This document shows, one piece after another, positions 1 through 63,557 of a stretch of 64,000 nucleotides of DNA. The position numbers were made by a program, and so were the translations under genes. Source of the DNA: the human T2T-CHM13v2.0 reference genome, Homo sapiens; contig CP086569.2 in NCBI GenBank assembly GCA_009914755.4, positions 35,808,001-35,872,000 of the forward strand, read 5' to 3'. The notes under the pieces were generated by a model that made no database searches, was not told the DNA's origin, and saw only the letters and a program-made list of their open reading frames with translations. The stretch's first letter is position 1; every line of letters starts with the position of its first letter.

Positions 1-3000
1 GACTGGAATGGAATGTTCTCGAAGTGAACGGACTCCAATGGAATGGATTCGAAAGGAATGGAAACTAATGGAATGGAATTAAACGGAAATGAATCAAATA
101 GAATAGAACGGAATTGAATTGAATGGAATCGAATGCAATGGAATCTAATGAAACGGAAAGGAATGGAATGGAATGGGCTGGAATGGAATGGAATCGAAAC
201 GAATGGAATGGAATCGAACTGAAGAGACTGGAATGGAATGCACTGGAATGGAAGGGAATGTAATGGAAGGTTCTCGAAAAAAATGGAATCGAAAGGAATG
301 GAATTGAATGGAACGGAATAGAGTCGAATGGAATTCAATGGAATGGAATGGACTAGAGTGAAATGGAATCGAACCACAAGGAATGGACAGGAATAGAATG
401 GTCTCGAATTGAATGGAATCGTATGGAATGGCATCAAACGGAATGGAATGGACAGCCACGGAATGGAATGGACACCCACGGAATGGAATGCACTCGAATG
501 CAATGGAGTCGACACTAATGGACTGGAATAGAATGGACTCGACTGGTACGGACTCCAATGGAATGGAATCGAATGGAAGGGAATCGAAAGGAATGGACTC
601 GAAGGGAAAAAACTGCAATGGAAAGGTCTCCAATGGAATGGAAATTAATGGAATGGAATGGAATCGAATGAAATGGAGTCAAAAGGAATGGAATCGAATG
701 GCAAGAAATCGAATGTAATGGAATCGCAAGGAATTGATGTGAACGGAACGGAATGGAATGGAATCCAAAGGAATGGAATAGAATGGAATGGAATCGAATG
801 GAAAGGACTCGAATGGAAATCACTCGAATAGAATGCAATTTAATAAAATAGGATCAAATGTAATGGAATGGAATGGAAAGGAATCGAAACGAAAGGAATG
901 GAGACAGATGGAATGGAATGGAACAGAGAGCAATGGTATAGAATGGAATGGAATCATCTGGAATGGAATTGAATGGAATGGAATAATATGAAATGGAATG
1001 GAATGGAATGGAATGCCCTTGAATTAAATGGACTGGAATGCAATGGACTCGAACAGAGTGGAATGGAAAGTGTTGAAATAGAATGGAATGGACTCGTTTG
1101 GAATGGTCTAGTATGCAATGCAATCGACTGGCAGGGAATCAAAAGGAATGTAATCGAATGGATTGGACTGGAATGCAATGGACTCGAATAGATTGGAAAC
1201 GGAAAGCAAAGGAATGGAATGGAATAGTATGGAATGGAATGCAAAGGAATGGAGTGGAATAGACTAGAGTGGAATGGAATGGACTCGAAAGCAATGGACT
1301 GGAATGGAACTTTCTTGAATGGACTGGAATCAAACGGAATGGAATGCAATGCAATCAAATGGCATGGAATAAAATAGAATGAAAGAGAATCAAATGGAAT
1401 TGAATCGAATGGAATCGAATGGATTGGAAAGGAATAGAATGGAATGGAATGGAATTGACTCAAATGGAATGGACTAGAATGGAATGGATTCGAATGGAAG
1501 GCAAAGGAATGGAATCTATTGGAATGGACTGTAATGGAATGGAATGGAAGGGATTGGAATGGACTCGAATGGAATGGACTGCAGTAGAAAGGATTCGAAT
1601 GGAATGAAAAAGAATTGAATGGAATAGAACAGAATGGAATCAAATCGAATGAAATGGAATGGAATAGAAAGGAATGGAATGAAATGGAATGGAAAGGATT
1701 CGAATGGAATGCAATCGAATGGAATGCAATCGAATGGAATGGAATCGAACGGAATGGAATAAAATGGAAGAAAACTGGCAAGAAATGGAATCGAAATGAA
1801 TGGAGTGTTATGGAACGGACTCAAAAGGAATTGAATGTAATAGAATGGAGTGGAGTGGACTCGAATATAATGGACTGGAATGGAATGAAATCACATGGAA
1901 TGGGAACGAATGGAATGGAATGGAAAGGAATGGAATCGAATGCAAAGGAATCGAATGGAAGGGAATGAAATTGAATCAACAGGAATGGAAGGGAGTAGAA
2001 TAGACGGTAATGGAATGGACTCGAATAGAATGGACACGAATGCTCAAATTGAATGGACTCGAATGGAATGGAAACGAAAGGAATGTCATCGAATGGAATT
2101 GAATCGATTGGAATGAAATCACATAGAATGGAGTGGAATCAAATGGAATTGAATCGAAAGGAAAGGAAGCGAATGGACTGAAATGAAATGGAATGGAATT
2201 GAATGGAAATTAATTCAATGGAATAGAATGGAACGAAATTTCACGGAATGGAATCAAACTGAATGGAATCAAATCAATGGAATATAATCAAATGGAATGG
2301 AAAGGAATTGAATGGAGTAGATTGAATTGGATGGGATTGGAATGAAATGTACTGGAAAGGACTCGAATTTCATGAAACGGAATGGAATGAATTAGAACGG
2401 AATGGACTCGAATGGAATGGAATGTCATGGAATGGCATCAAATGGAATGGAATCGAATGCGATGGAATGCTATGGAATGGAATGGAATGCATTGGAATGG
2501 AATGTCCTCTAATGGAATGTATTCGAGTGGAATGGAATCGAATATAATGGAGTCTAATGAAATGGAATTGAAAGGAATGGGACCGAATACAATGGAATAT
2601 ACTGGAATGTAATGTAATGAACTCGAATGTAATTGACTGGAATGGAATGTACATGAATGGAATGTAATCGAATGGAAAGCAATCCAATGGAATAGAATCT
2701 AATGCAATAAAATCGACTCAAATAGAGTAGAATGTAATGGAATGGAGTGCAGTGCAATGGAATGGAATGGAATGGAATGCAATGGAATGGAATGGAATGG
2801 AATGGGATGGAATGGTATGGAATGGATAGTAATGGACTGGAGTGAAATGGACTGGAAAAGAATGGACTCAAATTGAAAGGGCTCGAAAGGAATGGAGTCA
2901 AATGGAATGGTCTGGAATGGAATGAACACGAATGTAATGCAATCCAATAGAATGGAATCGAATGGCATGGAATATAAAGAAATGGAATCGAAGAGAATGG

Positions 3001-3534
3001 AAACAAATGGAATGGAATTGAATGGAATGGAATTGAATGGAATGGGAACGAATGGAGTGAAATTGTATGCAGTAGAAGAGAATAGAATGGAATGCAAGCG
3101 AAAGGAAAGGAATGGATTGGAATGGAATGGAATTCATTGGAATGGAAGGGAATGTAGTGTAATGGACAGGCCTGGAATAAAGTGGAATGCTACGGTCTCG
3201 AATGGAATAAAAATGTATGGAACGGAATGCAATGAAACGGAATCGAATGTCATAGAATGTAATGGAATGCAAAAAAATGGACTCCAAAATCATTGACTGG
3301 AAAGGCTGGGTGTCGAAAGGAATTGACTCCAATGGAATGGAATCGAATGGAATGGAAGTGAATAGAATCGAACTAAATCGAATGGAATGGAATTGATAGG
3401 AACGGAATGGAAAGGAATGCAATGATTTGGCATGGAATGGAATCGAATGGCATCGAATGGAATGGAATGGAATGCAATGGAATGGAATGTATTAGAATGT
3501 AATGAACTTTAATGGAATGTACTCGAATGGATTC
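1..3534 (+). repeat. HSat3 HOR copy 1 (3534 bp), subtype A
   Basis: Starts at landmark gactggaatggaatgttctcgaagtgaacggactcc. Carries two copies of the 15-mer ggaatggacaNccacg (451-480) and the KNCNGK-variant pseudo-ORF at 413-718. Near-identical to copies 9 and 12. Confidence 0.85.
835..866 (+). repeat. AT-rich non-pentameric landmark (gcaatttaataaaataggatcaaatgtaatgg) present once per HOR copy
   Basis: The same 32-mer recurs at about 4384, 7918, 11447, 14959, 18503, 22002, 25550, 29079, 32593, 36141, 39670, 43219, 46753, 50302, 53856, 57360 and 60864. Copies 17/18 read attgcaattt. It is useful as a phase marker. No function is implied. Confidence 0.7.
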
Positions 3535-6500
3535 GACTGGAATGGAATGTTCTCGAAGTGAATGGACTCCAATGGAATGGATTCGAAAGGAATGGAATCT
3601 AATGGAATGGAATTAAATGGAAATGAATCAAATTGAATAGAACGGAATTGAATTGAATGGAATCGAATGCAATGGAATCTAATGAAACGGAAAGGAAAGG
3701 AATGGAATGGATTGGAATGGAATGGGCTGGAATGGAATGGAATCGAAACGAATGGAATGGAATCGAACTGAAGAGACTGGAATGGAATGCACTGGAATGG
3801 AAGGGAATGTAATGGAAGGTTCTCGAAAAAAATGGAATCGAAAGGAATGGAATTGAATGGAACGGAATAGAGTCGAATGGAATTGAATGGAATGGAATGG
3901 ACTAGAGTGAAATGGAATCGAACCACAAGGAATGGACAGGAATAGAATGGTCTCGAATTGAATGGAATCGTATGGAATGGCATCAAACGGAATGGAATGG
4001 ACAGCCACGGAATGGAATGGACACCCACGGAATGGAATGCACTCGAATGCAATGGAGTCGACACTAATGGACTGGAATAGAATGGACTCGACTGGTACGG
4101 ACTCCAATGGAATGGAATCGAATGGAAGGGAATCGAAAGGAATGGACTCGAAGGGAAAAGACTGCAATGGAAAGGTCTCCAATGGAATGGAAATTAATGG
4201 AATGGAATGGAATCGAATGAAATGGAGTCAAAAGGAATGGAATCGAATGGCAAGAAATCGAATGTAATGGAATCGCAAGGAATTGATGTGAACGGAACGG
4301 AATGGAATGGAATCCAAAGGAATGGAATAGAATGGAATGGAATCGAATGGAAAGGACTCGAATGGAAATCACTCGAATAGAATGCAATTTAATAAAATAG
4401 GATCAAATGTAATGGAATGGAATGGAAAGGAATCGAAACGAAAGGAATGGAGACAGATGGAATGGAATGGAACAGAGAGCAATGGTATAGAATGGAATGG
4501 AATCATCTGGAATGGAATTGAATGGAATGGAATAATATGAAATGGAATGGAATGGAATGGAATGCCCTTGAATTAAATGGACTGGAATGCAATGGACTCG
4601 AACAGAGTGGAATGGAATGTGTTGAAATAGAATGGAATGGACTCGTTTGGAATGGTCTAGTATGCAATGCAATCGACTGGCAGGGAATCAAAAGGAATGT
4701 AATCGAATGGATTGGACTGGAATGCAATGGACTCGAATAGATTGGAAGCAGAAAGCAAAGGAATGGAATGGAATAGTATGGAATGGAATGCAAAGGAATG
4801 GAGTGGAATAGACTAGAGTGGAATGGAATGGACTCGAAAGCAATGGACTGGAATGGAACTTTCTTGAATGGACTGGAATCAAACGGAATGGAATGCAATG
4901 CAATCAAATGGCATGGAATAAAATAGAATGAAAGAGAATCAAATGGAATTGAATCGAATGGAATCGAATGGATTGGAAAGGAATAGAATGGAATGGAATG
5001 GAATTGACTCAAATGGAATGGACTAGAATGGAATGGATTCGAATGGAAGGCAAAGGAATGGAATCTATTGGAATGGACTGTAATGGAATGGAATGGAAGG
5101 GATTGGAATGGACTCGAATGGAATGCGCTGCAATAGAAAGGATTCGAATGGAATGAAAAAGAATTGAATGGAATAGAACAGAATGGAATCAAATCGAATG
5201 AAATGGAATGGAATAGAAAGGAATGGAATGAAATGGAATGGAAAGGATTCGAATGGAATGCAATCGAATGGAATGCAATCGAATGGAATGGAATCGAACG
5301 GAATGGAATAAAATGGAAGAAAACTGGCAAGAAATGGAGTCGAAATGAATGGAGTGTTATGGAACGGACTCAAAAGGAATTGAATGTAATAGAATGGAGT
5401 GGAGTGGACTCGAATATAATGGACTGGAGTGGAATGAAATCACATGGAATGGGAACGAATGGAATGGAATGGAAAGGAATGGAATCGAATGGAAAGGAAT
5501 CGAATGGAAGGGAATGAAATTGAATCAACAGGAATGGAAGGGAGTAGAATAGACGGTAATGGAATGGACTCGAATAGAATGGACACGAATGCTCAAATTG
5601 AATGGACTCGAATGGAATGGAAACGAAAGGAATGTCATCGAATGGAATTGAATCTATTGGAATGAAATCACATAGAATGGAGTGGAATCAAATGGAATTG
5701 AATCGAAAGGAAAGGAAGCGAATGGACTGAAATGAAATGGAATGGAATTGAATGGAAATTAATGCAATGGAATAGAATGGAACGAAATTTCACGGAATGG
5801 AATCAAACTGAATGGAATCAAATCAATGGAATATAATCAAATGGAATGGAAAGGAATTGAATGGAGTAGATTGGATTGGATGGGATTGGAATGAAATGTA
5901 CTGGAAAGGACTCGAATTTCATGAAACGGAATGGAATGAATTAGAACGGAATGGACTCGAATGGAATGGAATGTCATGGAATGGCATCAAATGGAATGGA
6001 ATCGAATGCGATGGAATGCTATGGAATGGAATGGAATGCATTGGAATGGAATGTCCTCTAATGGAATGGATTTGAGTGGAATGGAATCGAATATAATGGA
6101 GTCTAATGAAATAGAATTGAAAGGAATGGGACCGAATACAATGGAATATACTGGAATGTAATGTAATGAACTCGAATGTAATTGACTGGAATGGAATGTA
6201 CATGAATGGAATGTAATCGAATGGAAAGCAATCCAATGGAATAGAATCTAATGCAATAAAATCGACTCAAATAGAGTAGAATGTAATGGAATGGAGTGCA
6301 GTGCAATGGAATGGAATGGAATGGAATGCAATGGAATGGAATGGAATGGAATGGGATGGAATGGTATGGAATGGATAGTAATGGACTGGAGTGAAATGGA
6401 CTGGAAAAGAATGGACTCAAATTGAAAGGGCTCGAAAGGAATGGAGTCAAATGGAATGGTCTGGAATGGAATGAACACGAATGTAATGCAATCCAATAGA

Positions 6501-7083
6501 ATGGAATCGAATGGCATGGAATATAAAGAAATGGAATCGAAGAGAATGGAAACAAATGGAATGGAATTGAATGGAATGGAATTGAATGGAATGGGAACGA
6601 ATGGAGTGAAATTGTATGCAGTAGAAGAGAATAGAATGGAATGCAAGCGAAAGGAAAGGAATGGATTGGAATGGAATGGAATTCATTGGAATGGAAGGGA
6701 ATGTAGTGTAATGGACAGGCCTGGAATAAAGTGGAATGCTACGGTCTCGAATGGAATAAAAATGTATGGAACGGAATGCAATGAAACGGAATCGAATGTC
6801 ATAGAATGTAATGGAATGCAAAAAAATGGACTCCAAAATCATTGACTGGAAAGGCTGGGTGTCGAAAGGAATTGACTCCAATGGAATGGAATCGAATGGA
6901 ATGGAAGTGAATAGAATCGAACTAAATCGAATGGAATGGAATTGATAGGAACGGAATGGAAAGGAATGCAATGATTTGGCATGGAATGGAATCGAATGGC
7001 ATCGAATGGAATGGAATGGAATGCAATGGAATGGAATGTATTAGAATGTAATGAACTTTAATGGAATGTACTCGAATGGATTC
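3535..7083 (+). repeat. HSat3 HOR copy 2 (3549 bp), subtype B
   Basis: Same landmark order as copy 1. Has 15 extra bp (aaggaaagg ... ggaatggattggaatgg) near the unit head. Near-identical to copy 13. Confidence 0.85.
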
Positions 7084-10000
7084 GACTGGAATGGAATGTT
7101 CTGGAAGTGAATGGACTCCAATGGAATGGATTCGAAAGGAATGGAAACTAATGGAATGGAATTAAACGGAAATGAATCAAATAGAATAGAACGGAATTGA
7201 ATTGAATGGAATCGAATGCAATGGAATCTAATGAAACGGAAAGGAATGGAATGGAATGGGCTGGAATGGAATGGAATCGAAACGAATGGAATGGAATCGA
7301 ACTGAAGAGACTGGAATGGAATGCACTGGAATGGAAGGGAATGTAATGGAAGGTTCTCGAAAAAAATGGAATCGAAAGGAATGGAATTGAATGGAACGGA
7401 ATAGAGTCGAATGGAATTCAATGGAATGGAATGGACTAGAGTGAAATGGAATCGAACCACAAGGAATGGACAGGAATAGAATGGTCTCGAATTGAATGGA
7501 ATCGTATGGAATGGCATCAAACGGAATGGAATGGACAGCCACGGAATGGAATGGACACCCACGGAATGGAATGCACTCGAATGCAATGGAGTCGACACTA
7601 ATGGACTGGAATAGAATGGACTCGACTGGTACGGACTCCAATGGAATGGAATCGAATGGAAGGGAATCGAACGGAATGGACTCGAAGGGAAAAGACTGCA
7701 ATGGAATGGTCTCGAATGGAATGGAAATTAATGGAATGGAATGGAATCGAATGAAATGGAGTCAAAAGGAATGGAATCGAATGGCAAGAAATCGAATGTA
7801 ATGGAATCGCAAGGAATTGATGTGAACGGAACGGAATGGAATGGAATCCAAAGGAATGGAATAGAATGGAATGGAATCGAATGGAAAGGACTCGAATGGA
7901 AATCACTCGAATAGAATGCAATTTAATAAAATAGGATCAAATGTAATGGAATGGAATGGAAAGGAATCGAAACGAAAGGAATGGAGACAGATGGAATGGA
8001 ATGGAACAGAGAGCAATGGTATAGAATGGAATGGAATCATCTGGAATGGAATTGAATGGAATGGAATAATATGAAATGGAATGGAATGGAATGGAATGCC
8101 CTTGAATTAAATGGACTGGAATGCAATGGACTCGAACAGAGTGGAATGGAAAGTGTTGAAATAGAATGGAATGGACTCGTTTGGAATGGTCTAGTATGCA
8201 ATGCAATCGACTGGCAGGGAATCAAAAGGAATGTAATCGAATGGATTGGACTGGAATGCAATGGACTCGAATAGATTGGAAACGGAAAGCAAAGGAATGG
8301 AATGGAATAGTATGGAATGGAATGCAAAGGAATGGAGTGGAATAGACTAGAGTGGAATGGAATGGACTCGAAAGCAATGGACTGGAATGGAACTTTCTTG
8401 AATGGACTGGAATCAAACGGAATGGAATGCAATGCAATCAAATGGCATGGAATAAAATAGAATGAAAGAGAATCAAATGGAATTGAATCGAATGGAATCG
8501 AATGGATTGGAAAGGAATAGAATGGAATGGAATGGAATTGACTCAAATGGAATGGACTAGAATGGAATGGATTCGAATGGAAGGCAAAGGAATGGAATCT
8601 ATTGGAATGGACTGTAATGGAATGGAATGGAAGGGATTGGAATGGACTCGAATGGAATGGACTGCAGTAGAAAGGATTCGAATGGAATGAAAAAGAATTG
8701 AATGGAATAGAACAGAATGGAATCAAATCGAATGAAATGGAATGGAATAGAAAGGAATGGAATGAAATGGAATGGAAAGGATTCGAATGGAATGCAATCG
8801 AATGGAATGCAATCGAATGGAATGGAATCGAACGGAATGGAATAAAATGGAAGAAAACTGGCAAGAAATGGAATCGAAATGAATGGAGTGTTATGGAACG
8901 GACTCAAAAGGAATTGAATGTAATAGAATGGAGTGGAGTGGACTCGAATATAATGGACTGGAATGGAATGAAATCACATGGAATGGGAACGAATGGAATG
9001 GAATGGAAAGGAATGGAATCGAATGCAAAGGAATCGAATGGAAGGGAATGAAATTGAATCAACAGGAATGGAAGGGAGTAGAATAGACGGTAATGGAATG
9101 GACTCGAATAGAATGGACACGAATGCTCAAATTGAATGGACTCGAATGGAATGGAAACGAAAGGAATGTCATCGAATGGAATTGAATCGATTGGAATGAA
9201 ATCACATAGAATGGAGTGGAATCAAATGGAATTGAATCGAAAGGAAAGGAAGCGAATGGACTGAAATGAAATGGAATGGAATTGAATGGAAAGTAATGCA
9301 ATGGAATAGAATGGAACGAAATTTCACGGAATGGAATCAAACTGAATGGAATCAAATCAATGGAATATAATCAAATGGAATGGAAAGGAATTGAATGGAG
9401 TAGATTGGATTGGATGGGATTGGAATGAAATGTACTGGAAAGGACTCGAAATTCATGAAACGGAATGGAATGAACTGGAACGGAATGGACTCGAATGGAA
9501 TGGAATGTCATGGAATGGCATCAAATGGAATGGAATCGAATGCGATGGAATGCTATGGAATGGAATGGAATGCATTGGAATGGAATGTCCTCTAATGGAA
9601 TGTATTCGAGTGGAATGGAATCGAATATAATGGAGTCTAATGAAATGGAATTGAAAGGAATGGGACCGAATACAATGGAATAAACTGGTATGTAATGTAA
9701 TGAACTCGAATGTAATTGACTGGAATGGAATGTACATGAATGGAATGTAATCGAATGGAAAGCAATCCAATGGAATAGAATCTAATGCAATAAAATCGAC
9801 TCAAATAGAGTAGAATGTAATGGAATGGAGTGCAGTGCAATGGAATGGAATGGAATGCAACGGAATGGAATGGAATGGAATGGAATGGGATGGAATGGTA
9901 TGGAATGGATAGTAATGGACTGGAGTGAAATGGACTGGAAAAGAATGGACTCAAATTGAAAGGGCTCGAAAGGAATGGAGTCAAATGGAATGGTCTGGAA

Positions 10001-20600: not shown

Positions 20601-21187
20601 TAGAATGGAATCGAATGGCATAGAATATAAAGAAATGGAATCGAAGAGAATGGAAACAAATGGAATGGAATTGAATGGAATGGAATTGAATGGAATGGGA
20701 ACGAATGGAGTGAAATTGTATGCAGTAGAAGAGAATAGAATGGAATGCAAGCGAAAGGAAAGGAATGGATTGGAATGGAATGGAATTCATTGGAATGGAA
20801 GGGAATGTAGTGTAATGGACAGGCCTGGAATAAAGTGGAATGCTACGGTCTCGAATGGAATAAAAATGTATGGAATGGAATGCAATGAAACGGAATCGAA
20901 TGTCATAGAATGTAATGGAATGCAAAAAAATGGAATCCAAAATCATTGACTGGAAAGGCTGGGTGTCGAAAGGAATTGACTCCAATGGAATGGAATCGAA
21001 TGGAATGGAAGTGAATAGAATCGAACTAAATCGAATGGAATGGAATTGATAGGAACGGAATGGAAAGGAATGCAATGATTTGGCATGGAATGGAATCGAA
21101 AGGCATCGAATGGAATGGAATGGAATGCAATGGAATGGAATGTATTAGAATGTAATGAACATTAATGGAAAGTACTCGAATGGATTC
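17674..21187 (+). repeat. HSat3 HOR copy 6 (3514 bp), subtype D
   Basis: Same landmarks. The unit tail (about 19.9 kb onward) begins the 10,591-bp-offset identity block. Confidence 0.85.
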
Positions 21188-41800: not shown

Positions 41801-42369
41801 CATGGAATATAAAGAAATGGAATCGAAGAGAATGGAAACAAATGGAATGGAATTGAATGGAATGGAATTGAATGGAATGGGAACGAATGGAGTGAAATTG
41901 TATGCAGTAGAAGAGAATAGAATGGAATGCAAGCGAAAGGAAAGGAATGGATTGGAATGGAATGGAATTCATTGGAATGGAAGGGAATGTAGTGTAATGG
42001 ACAGGCCTGGAATAAAGTGGAATGCTACGGTCTCGAATGGAATAAAAATGTATGGAACGGAATGCAATGAAACGGAATCGAATGTCATAGAATGTAATGG
42101 AATGCAAAAAAATGGACTCCAAAATCATTGACTGGAAAGGCTGGGTGTCGAAAGGAATTGACTCCAATGGAATGGAATCGAATGGAATGGAAGTGAATAG
42201 AATCGAACTAAATCGAATGGAATGGAATTGATAGGAACGGAATGGAAAGGAATGCAATGATTTGGCATGGAATGGAATCGAATGGCATCGAATGGAATGG
42301 AATGGAATGCAATGGAATGGAATGTATTAGAATGTAATGAACTTTAATGGAATGTACTCGAATGGATTC
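38836..42369 (+). repeat. HSat3 HOR copy 12 (3534 bp), subtype A
   Basis: Near-identical to copy 1 at offset 38,835. Resembles copy 9. Confidence 0.85.
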
Positions 42370-45300: not shown

Positions 45301-45918
45301 ATGGAATGAACACGAATGTAATGCAATCCAATAGAATGGAATCGAATGGCATGGAATATAAAGAAATGGAATCGAAGAGAATGGAAACAAATGGAATGGA
45401 ATTGAATGGAATGGAATTGAATGGAATGGGAACGAATGGAGTGAAATTGTATGCAGTAGAAGAGAATAGAATGGAATGCAAGCGAAAGGAAAGGAATGGA
45501 TTGGAATGGAATGGAATTCATTGGAATGGAAGGGAATGTAGTGTAATGGACAGGCCTGGAATAAAGTGGAATGCTACGGTCTCGAATGGAATAAAAATGT
45601 ATGGAACGGAATGCAATGAAACGGAATCGAATGTCATAGAATGTAATGGAATGCAAAAAAATGGACTCCAAAATCATTGACTGGAAAGGCTGGGTGTCGA
45701 AAGGAATTGACTCCAATGGAATGGAATCGAATGGAATGGAAGTGAATAGAATCGAACTAAATCGAATGGAATGGAATTGATAGGAACGGAATGGAAAGGA
45801 ATGCAATGATTTGGCATGGAATGGAATCGAATGGCATCGAATGGAATGGAATGGAATGCAATGGAATGGAATGTATTAGAATGTAATGAACTTTAATGGA
45901 ATGTACTCGAATGGATTC
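42370..45918 (+). repeat. HSat3 HOR copy 13 (3549 bp), subtype B
   Basis: Near-identical to copy 2 at offset 38,835. Confidence 0.85.
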
Positions 45919-49452: not shown

Positions 49453-52400
49453 GACTGGAATGGAATGTTCTCGAAGTGAATGGACTCCAATGGAATGGAT
49501 TCGAAAGGAATGGAATCTAATGGAATGGAATTAAATGGAAATGAATCAAATTGAATAGAACGGAATTGAATTGAATGGAATCGAATGCAATGGAATCTAA
49601 TGAAACGGAAAGGAAAGGAATGGAATAGATTGGAATGGAATGGGCTGGAATGGAATGGAATCGAAACGAATGGAATGGAATCGAACTGAAGAGACTGGAA
49701 TGGAATGCACTGGAATGGAAGGGAATGTAATGGAAGGTTCTCGAAAAAAATGGAATCGAAAGGAATGGAATTGAATGGAACGGAATAGAGTCGAATGGAA
49801 TTCAATGGAATGGAATGGACTAGAGTGAAATGGAATCGAACCACAAGGAATGGACAGGAATAGAATGGTCTCGAATTGAATGGAATCGTATGGAATGGCA
49901 TCAATCGGAATGGAATGGACAGCCACGGAATGGAATGGACACCCACGGAATGGAATGCACTCGAATGCAATGGAGTCGACACTAATGGACTGGAATAGAA
50001 TGGACTCGACTGATACGGACTCCAATGGAATGGAATCGAATGGAAGGGAATCGAACGGAATGGACTCGAAGGAAAAAGACTGCAATGGAAAGGTCTCCAA
50101 TGGAATGGAAATTAATGGAATGGAATGGAATCGAATGAAATGGAGTCAAAAGGAATGGAATCGAATGGCAAGAAATCGAATGTAATGGAATCGCAAGGAA
50201 TTGATGTGAACGGAACGGAATGGAATGGAATCCAAAGGAATGGAATAGAATGGAATGGAATCGAATGGAAAGGACTCGAATGGACATCACTCGAATTGAA
50301 TGCAATTTAATAAAATAGGATCAAATGTAATGGAATGGAATGGAAAGGAATCGAAACGAAAGGAATGGAGACAGATGGAATGGAATGGAACAGAGAGCAA
50401 TGGTATAGAATGGAATGGAATCATCTGTAATGGAATTGAATGGAATGGAATAACATGAAATGGACTGGAATGGAATGGAATGCCCTTGAATTAAATGGAC
50501 TGGAATGGAATGGACTCGAACAGAGTGGAATGGAAAGTGTTGAAATAGAATGGAATGGACTCGTTTGGAATGGTCTAGTATGCAATGCAATCGACTGGCA
50601 GGGAATCAAAAGGAATGTAATCGAATGGATTGGACTGGAATGCAATGGACTCGAATAGATTGGAAACGGAAAGCAAAGGAATGGAATGGAATAGTATGGA
50701 ATGGAATGGAAAGGAATGGAGTGGAATAGACTAGAGTGGAATGGAATGGACTCGAAAGCAATGGACTGGAATGGAACTTTCTTGAATGGACTGGAATCAA
50801 ACGGAATGGAATGCAATGCAATCAAATGGCATGGAAGAAGATAGAATGAAAGAGAATGAAATGGAATTGAATCGAATGGAATCGAATGGATTGGAAAGGA
50901 ATAGAATGGAATGGAATGGAATTGACTCAAATGGAATGGACTAGAATGGAATGGATTCGAATGGAAGGCAAAGGAATGGAATCTATTGGAATGGACTGTA
51001 ATGGAATGGAATGGAAGGGATTGGAATGGACTCGAATGGAATGGACTGCAATAGAAAGGATTCGAATGGAATGAAAAAGAATTGAATGGAATAGAACAGA
51101 ATGGAATCAAATCGAATGAAATGGAATGGAATAGAAAGGAATGGAATGAAATGGAATGGAAAGGATTCGAATGGAATGCAATCGAATGGAATGCAATCTA
51201 ATGGAATGGAATCGAACGGAATGGAATAAAATGGAAGAAAACTGGCAAGAAATGGAGTCGAAATGAATGGAGTGTTATGGAACCGACTCAAAAGGAATTG
51301 AATGTAATAGAATGGAGTGGAGTGGACTCGAATATAATGGACTGGAATGGAATGAAATCACATGGAATGGGAACGAATGGAATGGAATGGAAAGGAATGG
51401 AATAGAATGGAAAGGAATCGAATGGAAGGGAATGAAATTGAATCAACAGGAATGGAAGGGAGTAGAATAGACGGTAATGGAATGGACTCGAATAGAATGG
51501 ACACGAATGCTCAAATTGAATGGACTCGAATGGAATGGAAACGAAAGGAATGTCATCGAATGGAATTGAATCGATTGGAATGAAATCACATAGAATGGAG
51601 TGGAATCAAATGGAATTGAATCGAAAGGAAAGGAAGCGAATGGACTGAAATGAAATGGAATGGAATTGAATGGAAATTAATGCAATGGAATAGAATGGAA
51701 CGAAATTTCACGGAATGGAATCAAACTGAATGGAATCAAATCAATGGAATATAATCAAATGGAATGGAAAGGAATTGAATGGAGTAGATTGGATTGGATG
51801 GGATTGGAATGAAATGTACTGGAAAGGACTCGAATTTCATGAAACGGAATGGAATGAATTAGAACGGAATGGACTCGAATGGAATGGAATGTCATGGAAT
51901 GGCATCAAATGGAATGGAATCGAATGCGATGGAATGCTATGGAATGGAATGGAATGCATTGGAATGGAATGTCCTCTAATGGAATGTATTCGAGTGGAAT
52001 GGAATCGAATATAATGGAGTCTAATGAAATGGAATTGAAAGGAATGGGACCGAATACAATGGAATATACTGGAATGTAATGTAATGAACTCGAATGTAAT
52101 TGACTGGAATGGAATGTACATGAATGGAATGTAATCGAATGGAAAGCAATCCAATGGAATAGAATCTAATGCAATAAAATCGACTCAAATAGAGTAGAAT
52201 GTAATGGAATGGAGTGCAGTGCAATGGAATGGAATGGAATGGAATGCAATGGAATGGAATGGAATGGAATGGAATGAGATGGAATGGTATGGAATGGATA
52301 GTAATGGACTGGAGTGAAATGGACTGGAAAAGAATGGACTCAAATTGAAAGGGCTCGAAAGGAATGGAGTCAAATGGAATGGTCTGGAATGGAATGAACA

Positions 52401-53006
52401 CGAATGTAATGCAATCCAATGGAATGGAATCGAATGGCATGGAATATAAAGAAATGGAATCGAAGAGAATGGAAACAAATGGAATGGAATTGAATGGAAT
52501 GGAATTGAATGGAATGGGAACGAATGGAGTGAAATTGTATGCAGTAGAAGAGAATAGAATGGAATGCAAGCGAAAGGAAAGGAATGGATTGGAATGGAAT
52601 GGAATTCATTGGAATGGAAGGGAATGTAGTGTAATGGACAGGCCTGGAATAAAGTGGAATGCTACGGTCTCGAATGGAATAAAAATGTATGGAATGGAAT
52701 GCAATGAAACGGAATCGAATGTCATAGAATGTAATGGAATGCAAAAAAATGGAATCCAAAATCATTGACTGGAAAGGCTGGGTGTCGAAAGGAATTGACT
52801 CCAATGGAATGGAATCGAATGGAATGGAAGTGAATAGAATGGAACTAAATCGAATGGAATGGAATTCATAGGAACGGAATGGAAAGGAATGCAATGATTT
52901 GGCATGGAATGGAATCGAATGGCATCGAATGGAATGGAATGGAATGCAATGGAATGGAATGTATTAGAATGTAATGAACTTTAATGGAATGTACTCGAAT
53001 GGATTC
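49453..53006 (+). repeat. HSat3 HOR copy 15 (3554 bp), subtype E
   Basis: Private variants shared with copy 16: ggaatggacatcactcgaattgaatgc, gactgatacgg, ggaaaaagactgc. Confidence 0.85.
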
Positions 53007-56000
53007 GACTGGAATGGAATGTTCTCGAAGTGAATGGACTCCAATGGAATGGATTCGAAAGGAATGGAATCTAATGGAATGGAATTAAATGGAAATGAAT
53101 CAAATTGAATAGAACGGAATTGAATTGAATGGAATCGAATGCAATGGAATCTAATGAAACGGAAAGGAAAGGAATGGAATGGATTGGAATGGAATGGGCT
53201 GGAATGGAATGGAATCGAAACGAATGGAATGGAATCGAACTGAAGAGACTGGAATGGAATGCACTGGAATGGAAGGGAATGTAATGGAAGGTTCTCGAAA
53301 AAAATGGAATCGAAAGGAATGGAATTGAATGGAACGGAATAGAGTCGAATGGAATTCAATGGAATGGAATGGACTAGAGTGAAATGGAATCGAACCACAA
53401 GGAATGGACAGGAATAGAATGGTCTCGAATTGAATGGAATCGTATGGAATGGCATCAATCAGAATGGAATGGACAGCCACGGAATGGAATGGACACCCAC
53501 GGAATGGAATGCACTCGAATGCAATGGAGTCGACACTAATGGACTGGAATAGAATGGACTCGACTGATACGGACTCCAATGGAATGGAATCGAATGGAAG
53601 GGAATCGAACGGAATGGACTCGAAGGAAAAAGACTGCAATGGAAAGGTCTCCAATGGAATGGAAATTAATGGAATGGAATGGAATCGAATGAAATGGAGT
53701 CAAAAGGAATGGAATCGAATGGCAAGAAATCGAATGTAATGGAATCGCAAGGAATTGATGTGAACGGAACGGAATGGAATGGAATCCAAAGGAATGGAAT
53801 AGAATGGAATGGAATCGAATGGAAAGGACTCGAATGGACATCACTCGAATTGAATGCAATTTAATAAAATAGGATCAAATGTAATGGAATGGAATGGAAA
53901 GGAATCGAAACGAAAGGAATGGAGACAGATGGAATGGAATGGAACAGAGAGCAATGGTATAGAATGGAATGGAATCATCTGGAATGGAATTGAATGGAAT
54001 GGAATAACATGAAATGGACTGGAATGGAATGGAATGCCCTTGAATTAAATGGACTGGAATGGAATGGACTCGAACAGAGTGGAATGGAAAGTGTTGAAAT
54101 AGAATGGAATGGACTCGTTTGGAATGGTCTAGTATGCAATGCAATCGACTGGCAGGGAATCAAAAGGAATGTAATCGAATGGATTGGACTGGAATGCAAT
54201 GGACTCGAATAGATTGGAAACGGAAAGCAAAGGAATGGAATGGAATAGTATGGAATGGAATGGAAAGGAATGGAGTGGAATAGACTAGAGTGGAATGGAA
54301 TGGACTCGAAAGCAATGGACTGGAATGGAACTTTCTTGAATGGACTGGAATCAAACGGAATGGAATGCAATGCAATCAAATGGCATGGAATAAAATAGAA
54401 TGAAAGAGAATGAAATAGAATTGAATCGAATGGAATCGAATGGATTGGAAAGGAATAGAATGGAATGGAATGGAATTGACTCAAATGGAATGGACTAGAA
54501 TGGAATGGATTCGAATGGAAGGCAAAGGAATGGAATCTATTGGAATGGACTGTAATGGAATGGAATGGAAGGGATTGGAATGGACTCGAATGGAATGGAC
54601 TGCAATAGAAAGGATTCGAATGGAATGAAAAAGAATTGAATGGAATAGAACAGAATGGAATCAAATCGAATGAAATGGAATGGAATAGAAAGGAATGGAA
54701 TGAAATGGAATGGAAAGGATTCGAATGGAATGCAATCGAATGGAATGCAATCTAATGGAATGGAATCGAACGGAATGGAATAAAATGGAAGAAAACTGGC
54801 AAGAAATGGAGTCGAAATGAATGGAGTGTTATGGAACCGACTCAAAAGGAATTGAATGTAATAGAATGGAGTGGAGTGGACTCGAATATAATGGACTGGA
54901 ATGGAATGAAATCACATGGAATGGGAACGAATGGAATGGAATGGAAAGGAATGGAATAGAATGGAAAGGAATCGAATGGAAGGGAATGAAATTGAATCAA
55001 CAGGAATGGAAGGGAGTAGAATAGACGGTAATGGAATGGACTCGAATAGAATGGACACGAATGCTCAAATTGAATGGACTCGAATGGAATGGAAACGAAA
55101 GGAATGTCATCGAATGGAATTGAATCGATTGGAATGAAATCACATAGAATGGAGTGGAATCAAATGGAATTGAATCGAAAGGAAAGGAAGCGAATGGACT
55201 GAAATGAAATGGAATGGAATTGAATGGAAATTAATGCAATGGAATAGAATGGAACGAAATTTCACGGAATGGAATCAAACTGAATGGAATCAAATCAATG
55301 GAATATAATCAAATGGAATGGAAAGGAATTGAATGGAGTAGATTGGATTGGATGGGATTGGAATGAAATGTACTGGAAAGGACTCGAATTTCATGAAACG
55401 GAATGGAATGAATTAGAACGGAATGGACTCGAATGGAATGGAATGTCATGGAATGGCATCAAATGGAATGGAATCGAATGCGATGGAATGCTATGGAATG
55501 GAATGGAATGCATTGGAATGGAATGTCCTCTAATGGAATGTATTCGAGTGGAATGGAATCGAATATAATGGAGTCTAATGAAATGGAATTGAAAGGAATG
55601 GGACCGAATACAATGGAATATACTGGAATGTAATGTAATGAACTCGAATGTAATTGACTGGAATGGAATGTACATGAATGGAATGTAATCGAATGGAAAG
55701 CAATCCAATGGAATAGAATCTAATGCAATAAAATCGACTCAAATAGAGTAGAATGTAATGGAATGGAGTGCAGTGCAATGGAATGGAATGGAATGGAATG
55801 CAATGGAATGGAATGGAATGGGATGGAATGGTATGGAATGGATAGTAATGGACTGGAGTGAAATGGACTGGAAAAGAATGGACTCAAATTGAAAGGGCTC
55901 GAAAGGAATGGAGTCAAATGGAATGGTCTGGAATGGAATGAACACGAATGTAATGCAATCCAATAGAATGGAATCGAATGGCATGGAATATAAAGAAATG

Positions 56001-56535
56001 GAATCGAAGAGAATGGAAACAAATGGAATGGAATTGAATGGAATGGGAACGAATGGAGTGAAATTGTATGCAGTAGAAGAGAATAGAATGGAATGCAAGC
56101 GAAAGGAAAGGAATGGATTGGAATGGAATGGAATTCATTGGAATGGAAGGGAATATAGTGTAATGGACAGGCCTGGAATAAAGTGGAATGCTACGGTCTC
56201 GAATGGAATAAAAATGTATGGAATGGAATGCAATGAAACGGAATCGAATGTCATAGAATGTAATGGAATGCAAAAAAATGGACTCCAAAATCATTGACTG
56301 GAAAGGCTGGGTGTCGAAAGGAATTGCCTCCAATGGAATGGAATCGAATGGAATGGAAGTGAATAGAATGGAACTAAATCGAATGGAATGGAATTGATAG
56401 GAACGGAATGGAAAGGAATGCAATGATTTGGCATGGAATGGAATCGAATGGCATCGAATGGAATGGAATGGAATGCAATGGAATGGAATGTATTAGAATG
56501 TAATGAACTTTAATGGAATGTACTCGAATGGATTC
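53007..56535 (+). repeat. HSat3 HOR copy 16 (3529 bp), subtype E
   Basis: Adjacent near-twin of copy 15. Confidence 0.85.
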
Positions 56536-59500
56536 GACTGGAATGGAATGTTCTTGAAGTGAATGGACTCCAATGGAATGGATTCGAAAGGAATGGAATC
56601 TAATGGAATGGAATTAAATGGAAATGAATCAAATTGAATAGAACGGAATTGAATTGAATGGAATCGAATGCAATGGAATCTAATGAAACGGAAAGGAAAG
56701 GAATGGAATGGAATGGAATGGGCTGGAATGGAAAGGAATCGAAACGAATGGAATGGAATCGAACTGAAGAGACTGGAATGGAATGCACTGGAATGGAAGG
56801 GAATGTAATGGAAGGTTCTCGAAAAAAATGGAATCGAAAGGAATGGAATTGAATGGAACGGAATAGAGTCGAATGGAATTCAATGGAATGGAATGGACTA
56901 GAGTGAAATGGAATCGAACCACAAGGAATGGACAGGAATAGAATGGTCTCGAATTGAATGGAATCGTATGGAATGGCATCAAACGGAATGGAATGGACAC
57001 CCACGGAATGGAATGCACTCGAATGCAATGGAGTCGAAACTAATGGACTGGAATAGAATGGACTCGACTGGTACGGACTCCAATGGAATGGAATCGAATG
57101 GAAGGGAATCGAACGGAATGGACTCGAAGGGAAAAGACTGCAATGGAAAGGTCTCGAATGGAATGGAAATTAATGGAATCGAATGGAATCGAATGAAATG
57201 GAGTCAAAAGGAATGGAATCGAATGGCAAGAAATCGAATGTAATGGAATCGCAAGGAATTGATGTGAACGGAACGGAATGGAATGGAATCCAAAGGAATG
57301 GAATAGAATGGAATGGAATCGAATGGAAAGGACTCGAATGGCAATCACTCGAATAGATTGCAATTTAATAAAATAGGATCAAATGTAATGGAATGGAATG
57401 GAAAGGAATCGAAACGAAAGGAATGGAGACAGATGGAATGGAATGGAACAGAGAGCAATGGTATAGAATGGAATGGAATCATCTGGAATGGAATTGAATG
57501 GAATGGAATAATATGAAATGGAATGGAATGGAATGGAATGCCTTTGAATTAAATGGACTGGAATGGAATGGACTCGAACAGAGTGGAATGGAAAGTGTTG
57601 AAATAGAATGGAATGGACTCGTTTGGAATGGTCTAGTATGCAATGCAATCGACTGGCAGGGAATCAAAAGGAATGTAATCGAATGGATTGGACTGGAATG
57701 CAATGGACTCGAATAGATTGGAAACGGAAAGCAAAGGAATGGAATGGAATAGTATGGAATGGAATGGAAAGGAATGGAGTGGAATAGACTAGAGTGGAAT
57801 GGAATGGACTGGAAAGCAATGGACTGGAATGGAACTTTCTTGAATGGACTGGAATCAAACGGAATGGAATGCAATGCAATCAAATGGCATGGAATAAAAT
57901 AGAATGAAAGAGAATCAAATGGAATTGAATCGAATGGAATCGAATGGATTGGAAAGGAATAGAATGGAATGGAACGGAATTGACTCAAATGGAATGGACT
58001 AGAATGGAATGGATTCGAATGGAAGGCAAAGGAATGGAATCTATTGGAATGGACTGTAATGGAATGGAATGGAAGGGATTGGAATGGACTCGAATGGAAT
58101 GGACTGCCATAGAAAGGATTCGAATGGAATGAAAAAGAATTGAATGGAATAGAACAGAATGGAATCAAATCGAATGAAATGGAATGGAATAGAAAGGAAT
58201 GGAGTGAAATGGAATGGAAAGGATTCGAATGGAATGCAATCGAATGGAATGCAATCGAATGGAATGGAATCGAACGGAATGGAATAAAATGGAAGAAAAC
58301 TGGCAAGAAATGGAATCGAAATGAACGGAGTGTTATGGAACGGACTCAAAAGGAATTGAATGTAATAGAATGGAGTGGAGTGGACTCGAATATAATGGAC
58401 TGGAATGGAATGAAATCACATGGAATGGGAACGAATGGAATGGAATGGAAAGGAATGGAATCGAATGGAAAGGAATCGAATGGAAGGGAATGAAATTGAA
58501 TCAACAGGAATGGAAGGGAGTAGAATAGACGGTAATGGAATGGACTCGAATAGAATGGACACGAATGCTCAAATTGAATGGACTCGAATGGAATGGAAAC
58601 GAAAGGAATGTCATCGAATGGAATTGAATCGATTGGAATGAAATCACATAGAATGGAGTGGAATCAAATGGAATTGAATCGAAAGGAAAGGAAGCGAATG
58701 GACTGAAATGAAATGGAATGGAATTGAATGGAAATTAATGCAATGGAATAGAATGGAACGAAATTTCACGGAATGGAATCAAACTGAATGGAATCAAATC
58801 AATGGAATATAATCAAATGGAATGGAAAGGAATTGAATGGAGTAGATTGGATTGGATGGGATTGGAATGAAATGTACTGGAAAGGACTCGAATTTCATGA
58901 AACGGAATGGAATGAATTAGAACGGAATGGACTCGAATGGAATGGAATGTCATGGAATGGCATCAAATGGAATGGAATCGAATGCGATGGAATGCTATGG
59001 AATGGAATGGAATGCATTGGAATGGAATGTCCTCTAATGGAATGTATTCGAGTGGAATGGAATCGAATATAATGGAGTCTAATGAAATGGAATTGAAAGG
59101 AATGGGACCGAATACAATGGAATATACTGGAATGTAATGTAATGAACTCGAATGTAATTGACTGGAATGGAATGTACATGAATGGAATGTAATCGAATGG
59201 AAAGCAATCCAATGGAATAGAATCTAATGCAATAAAATCGACTCAAATAGAGTAGAATGTAATGAAATGGAGTGCAGTGCAATGGAATGGAATGGAATGG
59301 AATGCAATGGAATGGAATGGAATGGGATGGAATGGTATGGAATGGATAGTAATGGACTGGAGTGAAATGGACTGGAAAAGAATGGACTCAAATTGAAAGG
59401 GCTCGAAAGGAATGGAGTCAAATGGAATGGTCTGGAATGGAATGAACACGAATGTAATGCAATCCAATAGAATGGAATCGAATGGCATGGAATATAAAGA

Positions 59501-63000: not shown

Positions 63001-63557
63001 AGAAATGGAATCGAAGAGAATGGAAACGAATGGAATGGAATTGAATGGAATGGAATTGAATGGAATGGGAACGAATGGAGTGAAATTGTATGCAGTAGAA
63101 GAGAATAGAATGGAATGCAAGCGAAATTAAAGGAATGGATTGGAATGGAATGGAATTCATTGGAATGGAAGGTAATGTATTGCAATGGACAGGCCTTTAA
63201 TAAAGTGGAATGCTACGGTCTCGAATGGAATAAAAATGTATGGAATGGAATTCAATGAAACGGAATCGAATGTCATAGAATGTAATGGAATGCAAAAAAA
63301 TGGAATCCAAAATCATTGACTGGAAAGGCTGGGTGTCGAAAGGAATTGACTCCAATGGAATGAAATCGAATGGAATGGAAGTGAATAGAATCGAAGTAAA
63401 TCGAATGGAATGGAATTGTTAGGAACGGAATGGAAAGGAGTGCAATGATTTGGCATGGAATGGAATCGAATGGCATTGAATGGAGTGGAATGGAATGCAA
63501 TGGAATGGAATGTATTAGAATGTAATGAACATTAATGGAATGTACTCGAATGGATTC
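60040..63557 (+). repeat. HSat3 HOR copy 18 (3518 bp), subtype D-prime with a diverged tail
   Basis: Adjacent near-twin of copy 17. The last ~1 kb (62.5-63.5 kb) carries many private substitutions. Confidence 0.8.

What the first reader, a model, noticed from the sequence alone, without database searches (positions are those of the whole stretch)
1..63557. Eighteen HOR copies fall into at least five subtypes arranged non-randomly
Diagnostic variants assign copies 1, 9 and 12 to subtype A. Copies 2, 8, 11 and 13 are subtype B. Copies 3 and 14 are subtype C. Copies 4, 5, 6, 7, 10, 17 and 18 are subtype D. Copies 15 and 16 are subtype E. The diagnostic variants include two versus one copy of ggaatggacaNccacg, KNCNGK/KDCNGK/DCNGMV codon-level variants, and a head variant gaacggactcc. 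The order A-B-C at units 1-3 recurs at units 12-14. The order D-B-A recurs at units 7-9 and 10-12. This layered pattern is what repeated unequal crossover between misaligned sister arrays produces.
Basis: seen in the sequence. Interest (0 to 1): 0.5.

Follow-up and report, generated by a model that had tools for sequence, protein, structure and literature searches.

The report
Recent duplications inside Y-chromosome DYZ1 satellite
This window is an ordinary stretch of the human Y-chromosome DYZ1 (HSat3) satellite: 18 copies of a 3.5-kb unit show two very recent multi-unit duplications on top of older exchanges, which is the known way such arrays evolve.

Summary
It is human DYZ1 / HSat3A6. The published HSat3A6-specific 24-mer hits 19 times; the 24-mers of the other 13 HSat2/3 subfamilies never hit. 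Eight published DYZ1 primers map collinearly around one HaeIII site per unit.

Copies do share recurrent variants and are ordered non-randomly, but "five subtypes" is not the natural description. Both recurring orders come from two near-perfect duplications. Block 1 is 1-9038 = 38836-47873 (3 mismatches). Block 2 is 19775-30453 = 30366-41044 (6 mismatches).

Block 2 is a tandem duplication of exactly three units (10,591 bp). Its in-register hybrid junction lies in unit 9, as one unequal exchange predicts.

Classes B and E hold. Unit 9 (class A) and class C hold only for the first half of the unit, because units 3, 9 and 14 are mosaics. Class D is not a clade. It is defined by an ancestral state, since canonical DYZ1 copies from other samples also have one copy of the motif.

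Unequal sister-chromatid exchange is the best explanation, with some conversion-like patches. This is already described for Yq12. Interest is low.

The parts
1..63557 (+). 18 complete DYZ1 (HSat3A6) units, GGAAT-rich strand on +. Unit starts: 1, 3535, 7084, 10618, 14131, 17674, 21188, 24701, 28245, 31779, 35292, 38836, 42370, 45919, 49453, 53007, 56536, 60040.
   Evidence: Anchor search finds 19 hits, all on the + strand, against 0 expected by chance. The HSat3A6 24-mer and the DYZ1 primers match.
63558..64000 (+). Partial 19th unit (443 bp), 3-4% different from the head of every other unit.
   Evidence: 14-19 mismatches in 443 bp against every unit.
1..9038 (+). Block 1, left copy (units 1, 2 and the first 56% of unit 3). 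Its left end is cut by the window edge.
   Evidence: Ungapped comparison at shift 38,835 gives 3 mismatches in 9,038 bp. Divergence then jumps to 6 mismatches in the next 362 bp.
38836..47873 (+). Block 1, right copy (units 12, 13 and the first 56% of unit 14).
   Evidence: The exact tract 4181-9038 = 43016-47873 (4,858 bp) was verified on the raw sequence.
19775..30365 (+). Block 2, first copy of a 10,591-bp (three-unit) tandem duplication: second part of unit 6, units 7 and 8, first part of unit 9.
   Evidence: At shift 10,591 there are 6 mismatches over 19775-30453. The exact tract 24084-28579 = 34675-39170 is 4,496 bp.
30366..40956 (+). Block 2, second copy: second part of unit 9, units 10 and 11, first part of unit 12.
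30366..30453 (+). 88-bp interval in unit 9 that contains the hybrid junction (left side like unit 12, right side like unit 6).
   Evidence: The last difference between units 6 and 9 is at alignment column 2150. The first dense difference between units 9 and 12 is at column 2239.
49453..56535 (+). Units 15 and 16: an older adjacent pair (lag one unit) with 11 substitutions and 3 indels.
   Evidence: Bootstrap support is 100%.
54973..57641 (+). Approximate lag-one tract of about 2.7 kb: unit 16 from column 1967 through unit 17 column 1105. It nearly equals the tract one unit to the right (2 differences). It is shorter than one unit, so it is not a pristine crossover product. Coordinates are approximate, derived from alignment columns.
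   Evidence: differences for 16 vs 17 and 17 vs 18. One search gives the exact sub-tract 56156-57601 = 59660-61105.
440..479 (+). Example of the derived 20-bp internal tandem duplication (the two copies of ggaatggacaNccac) carried by 11 of 18 units.
   Evidence: The second copy is absent from all 9 external DYZ1 units.
3169..3172 (.). The single HaeIII site (GGCC) of unit 1. The same site recurs once per unit. Units 4, 7 and 10 carry an extra site at unit position 454.

Best explanation
The window is part of a human Y-chromosome DYZ1 (HSat3A6) array. It belongs to a locally homogenised, somewhat divergent sub-family of the 3.5-kb unit.

The non-random order of unit variants reflects array turnover by out-of-register but in-phase exchange between sister chromatids.
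1. A very recent unequal exchange paired unit 12 with unit 6, a three-unit offset. It duplicated 10,591 bp and created hybrid unit 9.
2. A second recent event placed a copy of at least 9 kb 38.8 kb away. This is most simply the visible tail of an 8- or 11-unit tandem duplication whose other copy lies left of the window.
3. Older one- to six-unit exchanges and short conversion-like patches made the units mosaics.

Shown: the identity, the blocks, the junction and the mosaicism. Inferred: the molecular mechanism (crossover between sister chromatids) and the full extent of block 1.
For: IDENTITY
- The HSat3A6-specific 24-mer from Altemose 2014 (PMC4022460) occurs 19 times exactly, in 17 of 18 units. 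The 24-mers of the other 13 subfamilies give 0 hits even with one mismatch.
- Eight DYZ1 primers from PMC3925983 match every unit with 0-3 errors, mostly 0-1, except one stray placement of primer B. They are collinear with the published map measured from the HaeIII site.
- There is one HaeIII site per unit.

BLOCKS
- Block 1: 3 mismatches in 9,038 bp at shift 38,835. Block 2: 6 mismatches in 10,679 bp at shift 10,591.
- Block 2 length equals one period plus 88 bp, as a single unequal exchange predicts. Flanking divergence is about 1.4%.

MOSAICISM
- Trees for the two parts of the unit disagree with high bootstrap support. Units 3/14 group at 100% and 1/9/12 at 94% in part a. Units 6/9 group at 100% and 16/17 at 99% in part b.
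- The four-gamete test gives 727 of 3,916 incompatible site pairs and a minimum of 14 exchange events.

ROOTING WITH EXTERNAL COPIES
- The 9 external DYZ1 units differ from one another by 2-42 substitutions; the four collapsed-consensus copies differ by only 2-6. All 18 window units form one clade, 34-62 substitutions away from the external units. They share 6 fixed substitutions and 19 fixed gap columns, mainly deletions of 11 and 5 columns.

LITERATURE
- A pedigree study reports de novo SNVs and gene-conversion-like events in Yq12.
Against: - Block 1 cannot be shown to span a full period, because its left end is the window edge. A long non-reciprocal copy fits equally well.
- Several shared tracts are shorter than their lag (2.7 kb at lag 1, 2.1 kb at lag 2, 1.2-1.7 kb at lags 5-9). 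They are not pristine crossover products.
- Three of the seven distinct differences between the recent duplicates lie at sites already polymorphic among units. This suggests conversion or recurrent mutation.
- No reads were available to validate the assembly. No human reference was available to place the window.
Confidence: 0.72

Rival explanations
1. The two near-identical blocks arose by non-reciprocal templated copying, not by reciprocal unequal crossover. Candidate processes are long-tract gene conversion, break-induced replication, or template switching at a stalled fork.
For: - Block 1 is seen only as a patch of at least 9 kb lying 38.8 kb from its twin. Units 4 and 15, just beyond it, differ by 75 events.
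- Many older shared tracts are shorter than their lag.
- Gene-conversion-like de novo events are reported in Yq12.
- An in-register template switch would give the same tandem product as block 2.
Against: - Block 2 adds exactly three units, with identity of one period plus the junction interval. That is a copy-number gain, which simple conversion does not produce.
- Conversion tracts reported for Y palindromes are short, with a median of 542 bp. These blocks are 9-10.7 kb.
Confidence: 0.2
2. The near-identical blocks are assembly artefacts: a false duplication or mis-join in a hard-to-assemble satellite.
For: Yq12 is described as the hardest part of the Y to assemble. No read data could be examined here.
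Against: - The copies are distinguishable by private differences: two in unit 7 and two in unit 12.
- Their flanks differ at about 1.4%.
- The junction is in perfect register.
- Similar duplications are reported in validated assemblies.
Confidence: 0.04
3. The array consists of five discrete, stable unit subtypes arranged in a conserved super-repeat.
For: - The label string ABCDDDDBADBABCEEDD has three recurring trigrams, with permutation P about 0.046.
- Mean divergence at lag 3 is lower than in permutations, P about 0.01.
Against: - Class D is more diverse within itself than it is from other classes. It is defined by the ancestral one-copy state.
- Units 3, 9 and 14 change affiliation halfway along the unit.
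- The lag-3 signal is largely carried by the single recent duplication.
- No periodicity holds across the whole window.
Confidence: 0.03

Closest known systems
DYZ1 / HSat3A6, the ~3.5-3.6 kb nested repeat of the human Yq12 heterochromatin
   Same: - Built from the GGAAT/CATTC pentamer, with a unit of about 3.5 kb and one HaeIII site per unit.
- Carries the HSat3A6-specific 24-mer and is collinear with the published DYZ1 primers.
- CpG density is 1 per 34 bp, against 1 per 35 bp published.
   Different: - Units here are 3,504-3,554 bp, against the canonical 3,564/3,569 bp.
- They lie 34-62 substitutions from the external DYZ1 copies recovered from other samples. They share 19 fixed gap columns (mainly deletions of 11 and 5 columns) and 6 fixed substitutions relative to those copies.
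- This fits a divergent, possibly peripheral, sub-array (inference).
Iterative tandem duplications in Yq12 described for T2T-Y (Rhie et al., bioRxiv 10.1101/2022.12.01.518724)
   Same: In-register tandem duplication of multi-unit segments, attributed to unequal exchange, with sister-chromatid exchange observed in the region.
   Different: The published examples span whole DYZ1/DYZ2 blocks, up to 5 Mb. The events here are 10.6 kb and at least 9 kb, inside one DYZ1 array.
Alpha-satellite higher-order repeat arrays with local HOR variants and layered expansion
   Same: Both are tandem arrays in which neighbouring copies share variants because of local amplification. Hallast et al. state that DYZ1/DYZ2 arrays appear to evolve 'similarly to the centromeric region'.
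   Different: This array has no 171-bp monomers. The unit is a degenerate pentamer array, and there is no centromere function. 'HOR' is used only loosely here.
Classical unequal-crossover model of tandem-array homogenisation
   Same: The model predicts duplicated blocks that are whole numbers of units, hybrid junction units, and clustering of variants by position.
   Different: The model alone does not account for the shared tracts that are shorter than their lag. Those need conversion or later overwriting.

Membership tests
Human satellite 3 (HSat3) | Derived from tandem (GGAAT)n / (CATTC)n pentamers | tested here: met
   Exact GGAAT makes up 32% of the window. TRF periods of 5, 10, 15 and 20 bp cover the whole window. 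Indels are mostly multiples of 5 bp.
DYZ1 / HSat3A6 | Nested repeat unit of about 3.5-3.6 kb | tested here: met
   The 18 units are 3,504-3,554 bp. This is slightly shorter than the canonical 3,564-3,569 bp.
DYZ1 / HSat3A6 | One HaeIII site per unit, giving the classical 3.4-3.56 kb HaeIII fragment | tested here: met
   There is one GGCC at unit position about 3139-3189 in every unit, plus an extra site at position 454 in units 4, 7 and 10.
DYZ1 / HSat3A6 | Carries the subfamily-specific 24-mer of Altemose 2014 and lacks those of the other subfamilies | tested here: met
   TCGTTTCGATTCCTTTCCATTCCA gives 19 exact hits. The other 13 subfamily 24-mers give 0 hits even with one mismatch allowed.
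DYZ1 / HSat3A6 | Collinear with the published DYZ1 unit map | tested here: met
   Eight primers from PMC3925983 Table 5 match each unit with 0-3 errors (mostly 0-1), apart from one stray placement of primer B. Their distances from the HaeIII site fit the published positions.
DYZ1 / HSat3A6 | Located on Yq12, male-specific, in arrays alternating with DYZ2 (HSat1B) | not testable with these tools
   No human reference was available. The window is entirely DYZ1, and published arrays are 50 kb to 3.6 Mb long, so the absence of DYZ2 in 64 kb says nothing.
Tandem duplication by a single unequal in-register exchange | Two adjacent copies; identity at the shift lasts one period plus the junction interval; a hybrid unit sits at the junction; the period is a whole number of units | tested here: met
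   This holds for block 2. The period is 10,591 bp (three units). Identity covers 10,679 bp (19775-30453). Unit 9 is the hybrid of units 12 and 6.
Tandem duplication by a single unequal in-register exchange | The same criteria applied to block 1 (shift 38,835 bp) | tested here: inconclusive
   Identity covers 1-9038 and is cut by the window edge. The remaining 29.8 kb of the predicted first copy lies outside the window.
Alpha-satellite HOR | Built from ~171-bp monomers | tested here: not met
   TRF reports no 171-bp period. The sequence is pentamer-based.
   Pfam gives only sub-threshold low-complexity hits: 31.7 bits against a cut-off of 105, and 24.6 bits against 38. Rfam has no match at gathering score. 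The long ORFs are a mechanical result of a stop-free pentamer.

The most novel reading that the evidence does not exclude
The 3.5-kb DYZ1 unit may contain preferred exchange points. Independent switch points fall near alignment columns 1044-1106 (pairs 4/7, 2/8 and 17/18). Others fall near columns 1966-2239 (pairs 16/17 and 3/14, and the unit 9 junction). The window's sub-family, marked by fixed deletions and a derived 20-bp duplication, is also seen at 99% identity in an unrelated sample. It could be a stable positional marker of one Yq12 block across human Y lineages.
Probability: 0.1. Interest if true: 0.35.

Novelty: already known. Interest (0 to 1): 0.15.

Why it matters
It matters little beyond serving as a clean worked example. 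DYZ1 arrays are already known to evolve by unequal exchange, and complete Y assemblies have described their duplication structure.

The window does provide one event that passes a strict sequence test for a single three-unit unequal exchange, with the junction narrowed to 88 bp. It also yields variant markers: fixed gap columns (mainly deletions of 11 and 5 columns), a 20-bp duplication, and an extra HaeIII site. These could be used to trace and date this sub-array across Y haplogroups.

It also shows why satellite 'subtypes' called from a few markers at one end of a unit can mislead. The units are mosaics, and one 'subtype' was only the ancestral state.

Tried and rejected
1. I recalled from memory two classical DYZ1 sexing primers. 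Both occur in 14 of 18 units, spaced for a 154-bp product. Three literature searches found no paper printing them. I therefore did not use them as evidence and relied on published 24-mers and primers instead.

2. Coding reading of the 'codon-level variants': the ORFs are pentamer artefacts, with no Pfam match above cut-off.

3. Structured RNA: there is no Rfam match.

5. Persistent three-unit super-repeat: the lag-3 signal (P about 0.01) is mostly the single recent duplication, so I did not claim one.

6. Exchange hot spots: three of ten hand-read switch points lie within 62 columns, P about 0.09. This is not significant. The junction intervals of the two recent events do not overlap (column 1985 or lower, against columns 2151-2238).

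7. Ordering the two recent events: the differences among units 1, 9 and 12 do not resolve it.

8. Long-read metagenome contigs carrying DYZ1 (L004, L005, L012, L020): these have too many indels, 59-375 gap openings, for fine comparison.

9. Inversions: all 19 anchors are on the + strand.
Full report
WHAT IS THERE

The whole window is a GGAAT-rich satellite. GC content is 0.375-0.399 and GC skew is strongly positive throughout. TRF periods of 10, 15 and 20 bp cover positions 26-63997. A 28-base anchor occurs 19 times, always on the + strand, with none expected by chance. The anchors are 3,504-3,554 bp apart. This gives 18 complete units ending at 63557 plus a 443-bp partial unit.

IDENTITY

- Altemose et al. 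2014 (PMC4022460) list one specific 24-mer for each of 14 HSat2/3 subfamilies. Only the HSat3A6 (DYZ1, Y-chromosome) 24-mer is present. It gives 19 exact hits in 17 of 18 units. The other 13 give no hit even with one mismatch.
- Eight DYZ1 primers published with their map positions (PMC3925983) match every unit with 0-3 errors, mostly 0-1, on the expected strands. The one exception is a stray placement of primer B. Their distances from the unit's HaeIII site agree with the published map.
- Each unit has one HaeIII site at position about 3139-3189. This matches the classical definition of DYZ1 as a 3.4-3.56 kb HaeIII fragment.
- CpG density is 1 per 34 bp, against 1 per 35 bp published for DYZ1.
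- I could not place the window on a human reference. Chromosomal location therefore rests on these markers.

CHECKING THE SUBTYPE CLAIM

A MAFFT alignment of the 18 units (3,594 columns) has 354 variable columns, of which 185 are parsimony-informative. A generous star-like null gives 94 +/- 8.

Pairwise substitutions are strikingly uneven: 0 (units 8/11), 1 (2/13), 2 (1/12 and 7/10), 11 (15/16), and 14-87 for the rest.

Neighbour-joining trees support 1/12, 2/13, 7/10, 8/11, {2,8,11,13} and 15/16 at 100%. Trees built from alignment columns 0-1984 and 2151-end contradict each other:
- Units 3/14 (100%) and 1/9/12 (94%) group only in the first part.
- Units 6/9 (100%), 3/6/9 (100%) and 16/17 (99%) group only in the second part.

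So units 3, 9, 14 and others are recombinant mosaics. The four-gamete test finds 727 of 3,916 incompatible site pairs and a minimum of 14 exchange events. Some incompatibilities may instead be recurrent CpG mutation.

- Class B is sound.
- Class E is sound.
- Class A is sound for units 1 and 12. It holds for unit 9 only in the first half.
- Class C holds only up to column 1984.
- Class D has a larger mean distance within the class (57) than to other classes (48.7).

This explains the mismatch.

WHAT THE RECURRING ORDERS REALLY ARE

Ungapped comparison of the raw sequence at fixed shifts shows two blocks.
- Block 1: 1-9038 equals 38836-47873 (shift 38,835 bp, 11 units) with 3 mismatches. Divergence then jumps to 6 mismatches in the next 362 bp.
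- Block 2: 19775-30453 equals 30366-41044 (shift 10,591 bp, 3 units) with 6 mismatches. It is flanked by about 1.4% divergence on both sides.

Exact tracts reach 4,858 bp and 4,496 bp. A-B-C at units 1-3 and 12-14 is block 1. D-B-A at units 7-9 and 10-12 is block 2.

MECHANISM

A single unequal exchange with a three-unit offset between unit 12 on one chromatid and unit 6 on the other makes three predictions:
- Identity at the shift lasts exactly one period, plus the interval in which the two parental units were already identical.
- A hybrid unit forms, with the left part of unit 12 and the right part of unit 6.
- Everything stays in register.

Block 2 shows all three. Its length is 10,591 + 88 bp. 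Unit 9 equals unit 12 up to column 2238, apart from four point differences. Two of those are private to unit 12 and two lie at already polymorphic sites. Unit 9 equals unit 6 exactly from column 2151 onward. The junction therefore lies within 30366-30453. Unit 1 is a full-length twin of unit 12, which shows that unit 12's combination of halves existed before the event.

Block 1 is cut by the window's left edge. It may be the tail of an 11-unit tandem duplication, or an 8-unit one if block 2 came later. It may instead be a long non-reciprocal copy. The window cannot decide.

At the right end there are older lag-one relationships: units 15/16, and a tract of about 2.7 kb shared by 16-17 and 17-18. 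Elsewhere, identical tracts of 1-2 kb occur at lags of 2, 5, 6, 8 and 9 units. These tracts are shorter than their lag, so they are not pristine crossover products. They point to conversion-like patches or to later overwriting.

There are seven distinct differences between the recent duplicates.
- Four are private new alleles. One is a CpG C-to-T change in unit 12.
- Three lie at sites already polymorphic among units. That again suggests short conversion or recurrent mutation.

This agrees with a pedigree report of both de novo SNVs and gene-conversion-like events in Yq12.

That the exchange partners are sister chromatids is inferred from the Y-specific identity and from published Strand-seq evidence of sister-chromatid exchange in Yq12.

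Ages are very rough. With about 3e-8 per bp per generation (a Y euchromatin rate from my own knowledge) the blocks are about 5,500 and 9,400 generations old. With about 2.7e-7 they are about 600 and 1,000 generations old. The second rate is my arithmetic from 40 SNVs in six transmissions, assuming about 25 Mb of Yq12. The Poisson intervals are wide.

RELATED SEQUENCES ELSEWHERE

A 29-mer around the HaeIII site found 32 metagenome loci and 6 loci in bacterial genome assemblies. All of them are human DYZ1-like DNA, evidently contamination. I recovered nine full units from them.

- The nine external units differ from one another by 2-42 substitutions. The four collapsed-consensus copies (L022, L033, L038, L016), each from a different contig, differ by only 2-6 substitutions. 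External unit lengths are mostly 3,539-3,574 bp; one is 3,494 bp.
- All 18 window units are 34-62 substitutions from the external units. Rooted with them, the window units form a single clade. They share 6 fixed substitutions and 19 fixed gap columns, mainly deletions of 11 and 5 columns. The window is thus a locally homogenised, divergent DYZ1 sub-family.
- Published work finds divergent units towards the periphery of arrays and of Yq12. A peripheral position for this window is an inference from that.
The second copy of ggaatggacaNccacg is absent from all nine external units and from class D. Class D is therefore an ancestral-state grade, and the two-copy state is a derived 20-bp duplication carried by 11 units.
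- Canonical external contigs match best to class D units 4, 5, 6, 17 and 18.
- The window-type deletion junction occurs in six external loci and the two-copy motif in three. L002 is 99.0% identical to the unit 10-11 border tract. The sub-family therefore exists in other individuals.

OTHER CHECKS

- ORFs of 150 aa or more are frequent, mostly on the - strand. They are a mechanical result of a stop-free pentamer. Pfam gives only sub-threshold low-complexity hits.
- Rfam finds nothing.
- The 'codon-level variants' are simply SNPs.

COMPARISON WITH WHAT IS KNOWN, AND VERDICT

DYZ1/HSat3A6 and its ~3.5-kb unit are described in the T2T-Y and population Y-assembly papers. So are within-array similarity gradients, tandem duplications attributed to unequal exchange, and ongoing mutation and conversion.

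The interpretation, unequal sister-chromatid exchange, is the best-supported mechanism and is textbook for one event. Nothing here is outside known satellite biology. Novelty: already known. Interest: low.

Noticed in passing
L033-L038 (genome-contig hits): Six contigs in bacterial genome assemblies consist end to end of human DYZ1 satellite, 96-98% identical to the window over their full length. This is human male DNA contamination in the deposited assemblies. The assemblies are Actinomadura cremea JCM 3308, Streptosporangium violaceochromogenes JCM 3281, Streptomyces kurssanovii JCM 4388, Streptomyces sp. NPDC050549, Senimuribacter sp. DSM 106208 and a Polyangiaceae MAG.
   Followed up: partly
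window 1-63557, all units; alignment: All 18 units share 6 fixed substitutions and 19 fixed gap columns (mainly deletions of 11 and 5 columns) relative to canonical DYZ1 copies from other samples. The same deletion junction occurs in six external loci. L002 is 99.0% identical to the unit 10-11 border. This is a distinct DYZ1 sub-family present in several individuals.
   Followed up: partly
units 4, 7, 10: window about 11071, 21641, 32232: There is an extra HaeIII site (GGCC) at unit position 454. Virtual HaeIII digestion of these units would give fragments of about 2.7 kb and 0.8 kb instead of 3.5 kb, a possible restriction-fragment marker for this sub-array.
   Followed up: no
window-wide variable columns: 25% of biallelic substitution columns (53 of 214) lie in CpG context, against 5.9% of bases. 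Of those, 31 are CpG transitions. This fits deamination of methylated CpG in this heterochromatin.
   Followed up: partly
alignment columns 163-177, 470-489, 589-603, 1749-1763, 2472-2486, 2820-2864, 3065-3079: Almost all indels between units are multiples of 5 bp (5, 10, 15, 20, 25). This is the expected result of slippage on the pentamer. The 15-bp indel at column 163 and the 20-bp indel at column 470 show all four combinations among units, so exchange or recurrence has occurred between them.
   Followed up: partly
alignment columns about 1044-1106 and about 1966-2239 of the unit: Several independent switch points between 'identical' and 'divergent' fall in these two zones. The first zone holds pairs 4/7, 2/8 and 17/18. 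The second holds pairs 16/17 and 3/14 and the unit 9 junction. A rough scan test on ten hand-read points gives P about 0.09, which is not significant. A local 23-bp x2 repeat lies at unit position about 2020-2065.
   Followed up: partly
window 56536-64000 (units 17, 18 and partial 19): Divergence rises towards the right end. Unit 18 is 60-87 substitutions from all other units. The first 443 bp of unit 19 are 3-4% from every unit. This may mark the approach to the edge of the homogenised sub-array.
   Followed up: no
L006, L021, L029, L030, L031: Some external contigs carry the same 29-mer but are only 74-87% identical to the window. They may belong to DYZ1-related repeats, such as the 2.7-kb, 3.1-kb or DYZ18 arrays mentioned by Hallast et al., or to other HSat3 loci.
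   Followed up: no
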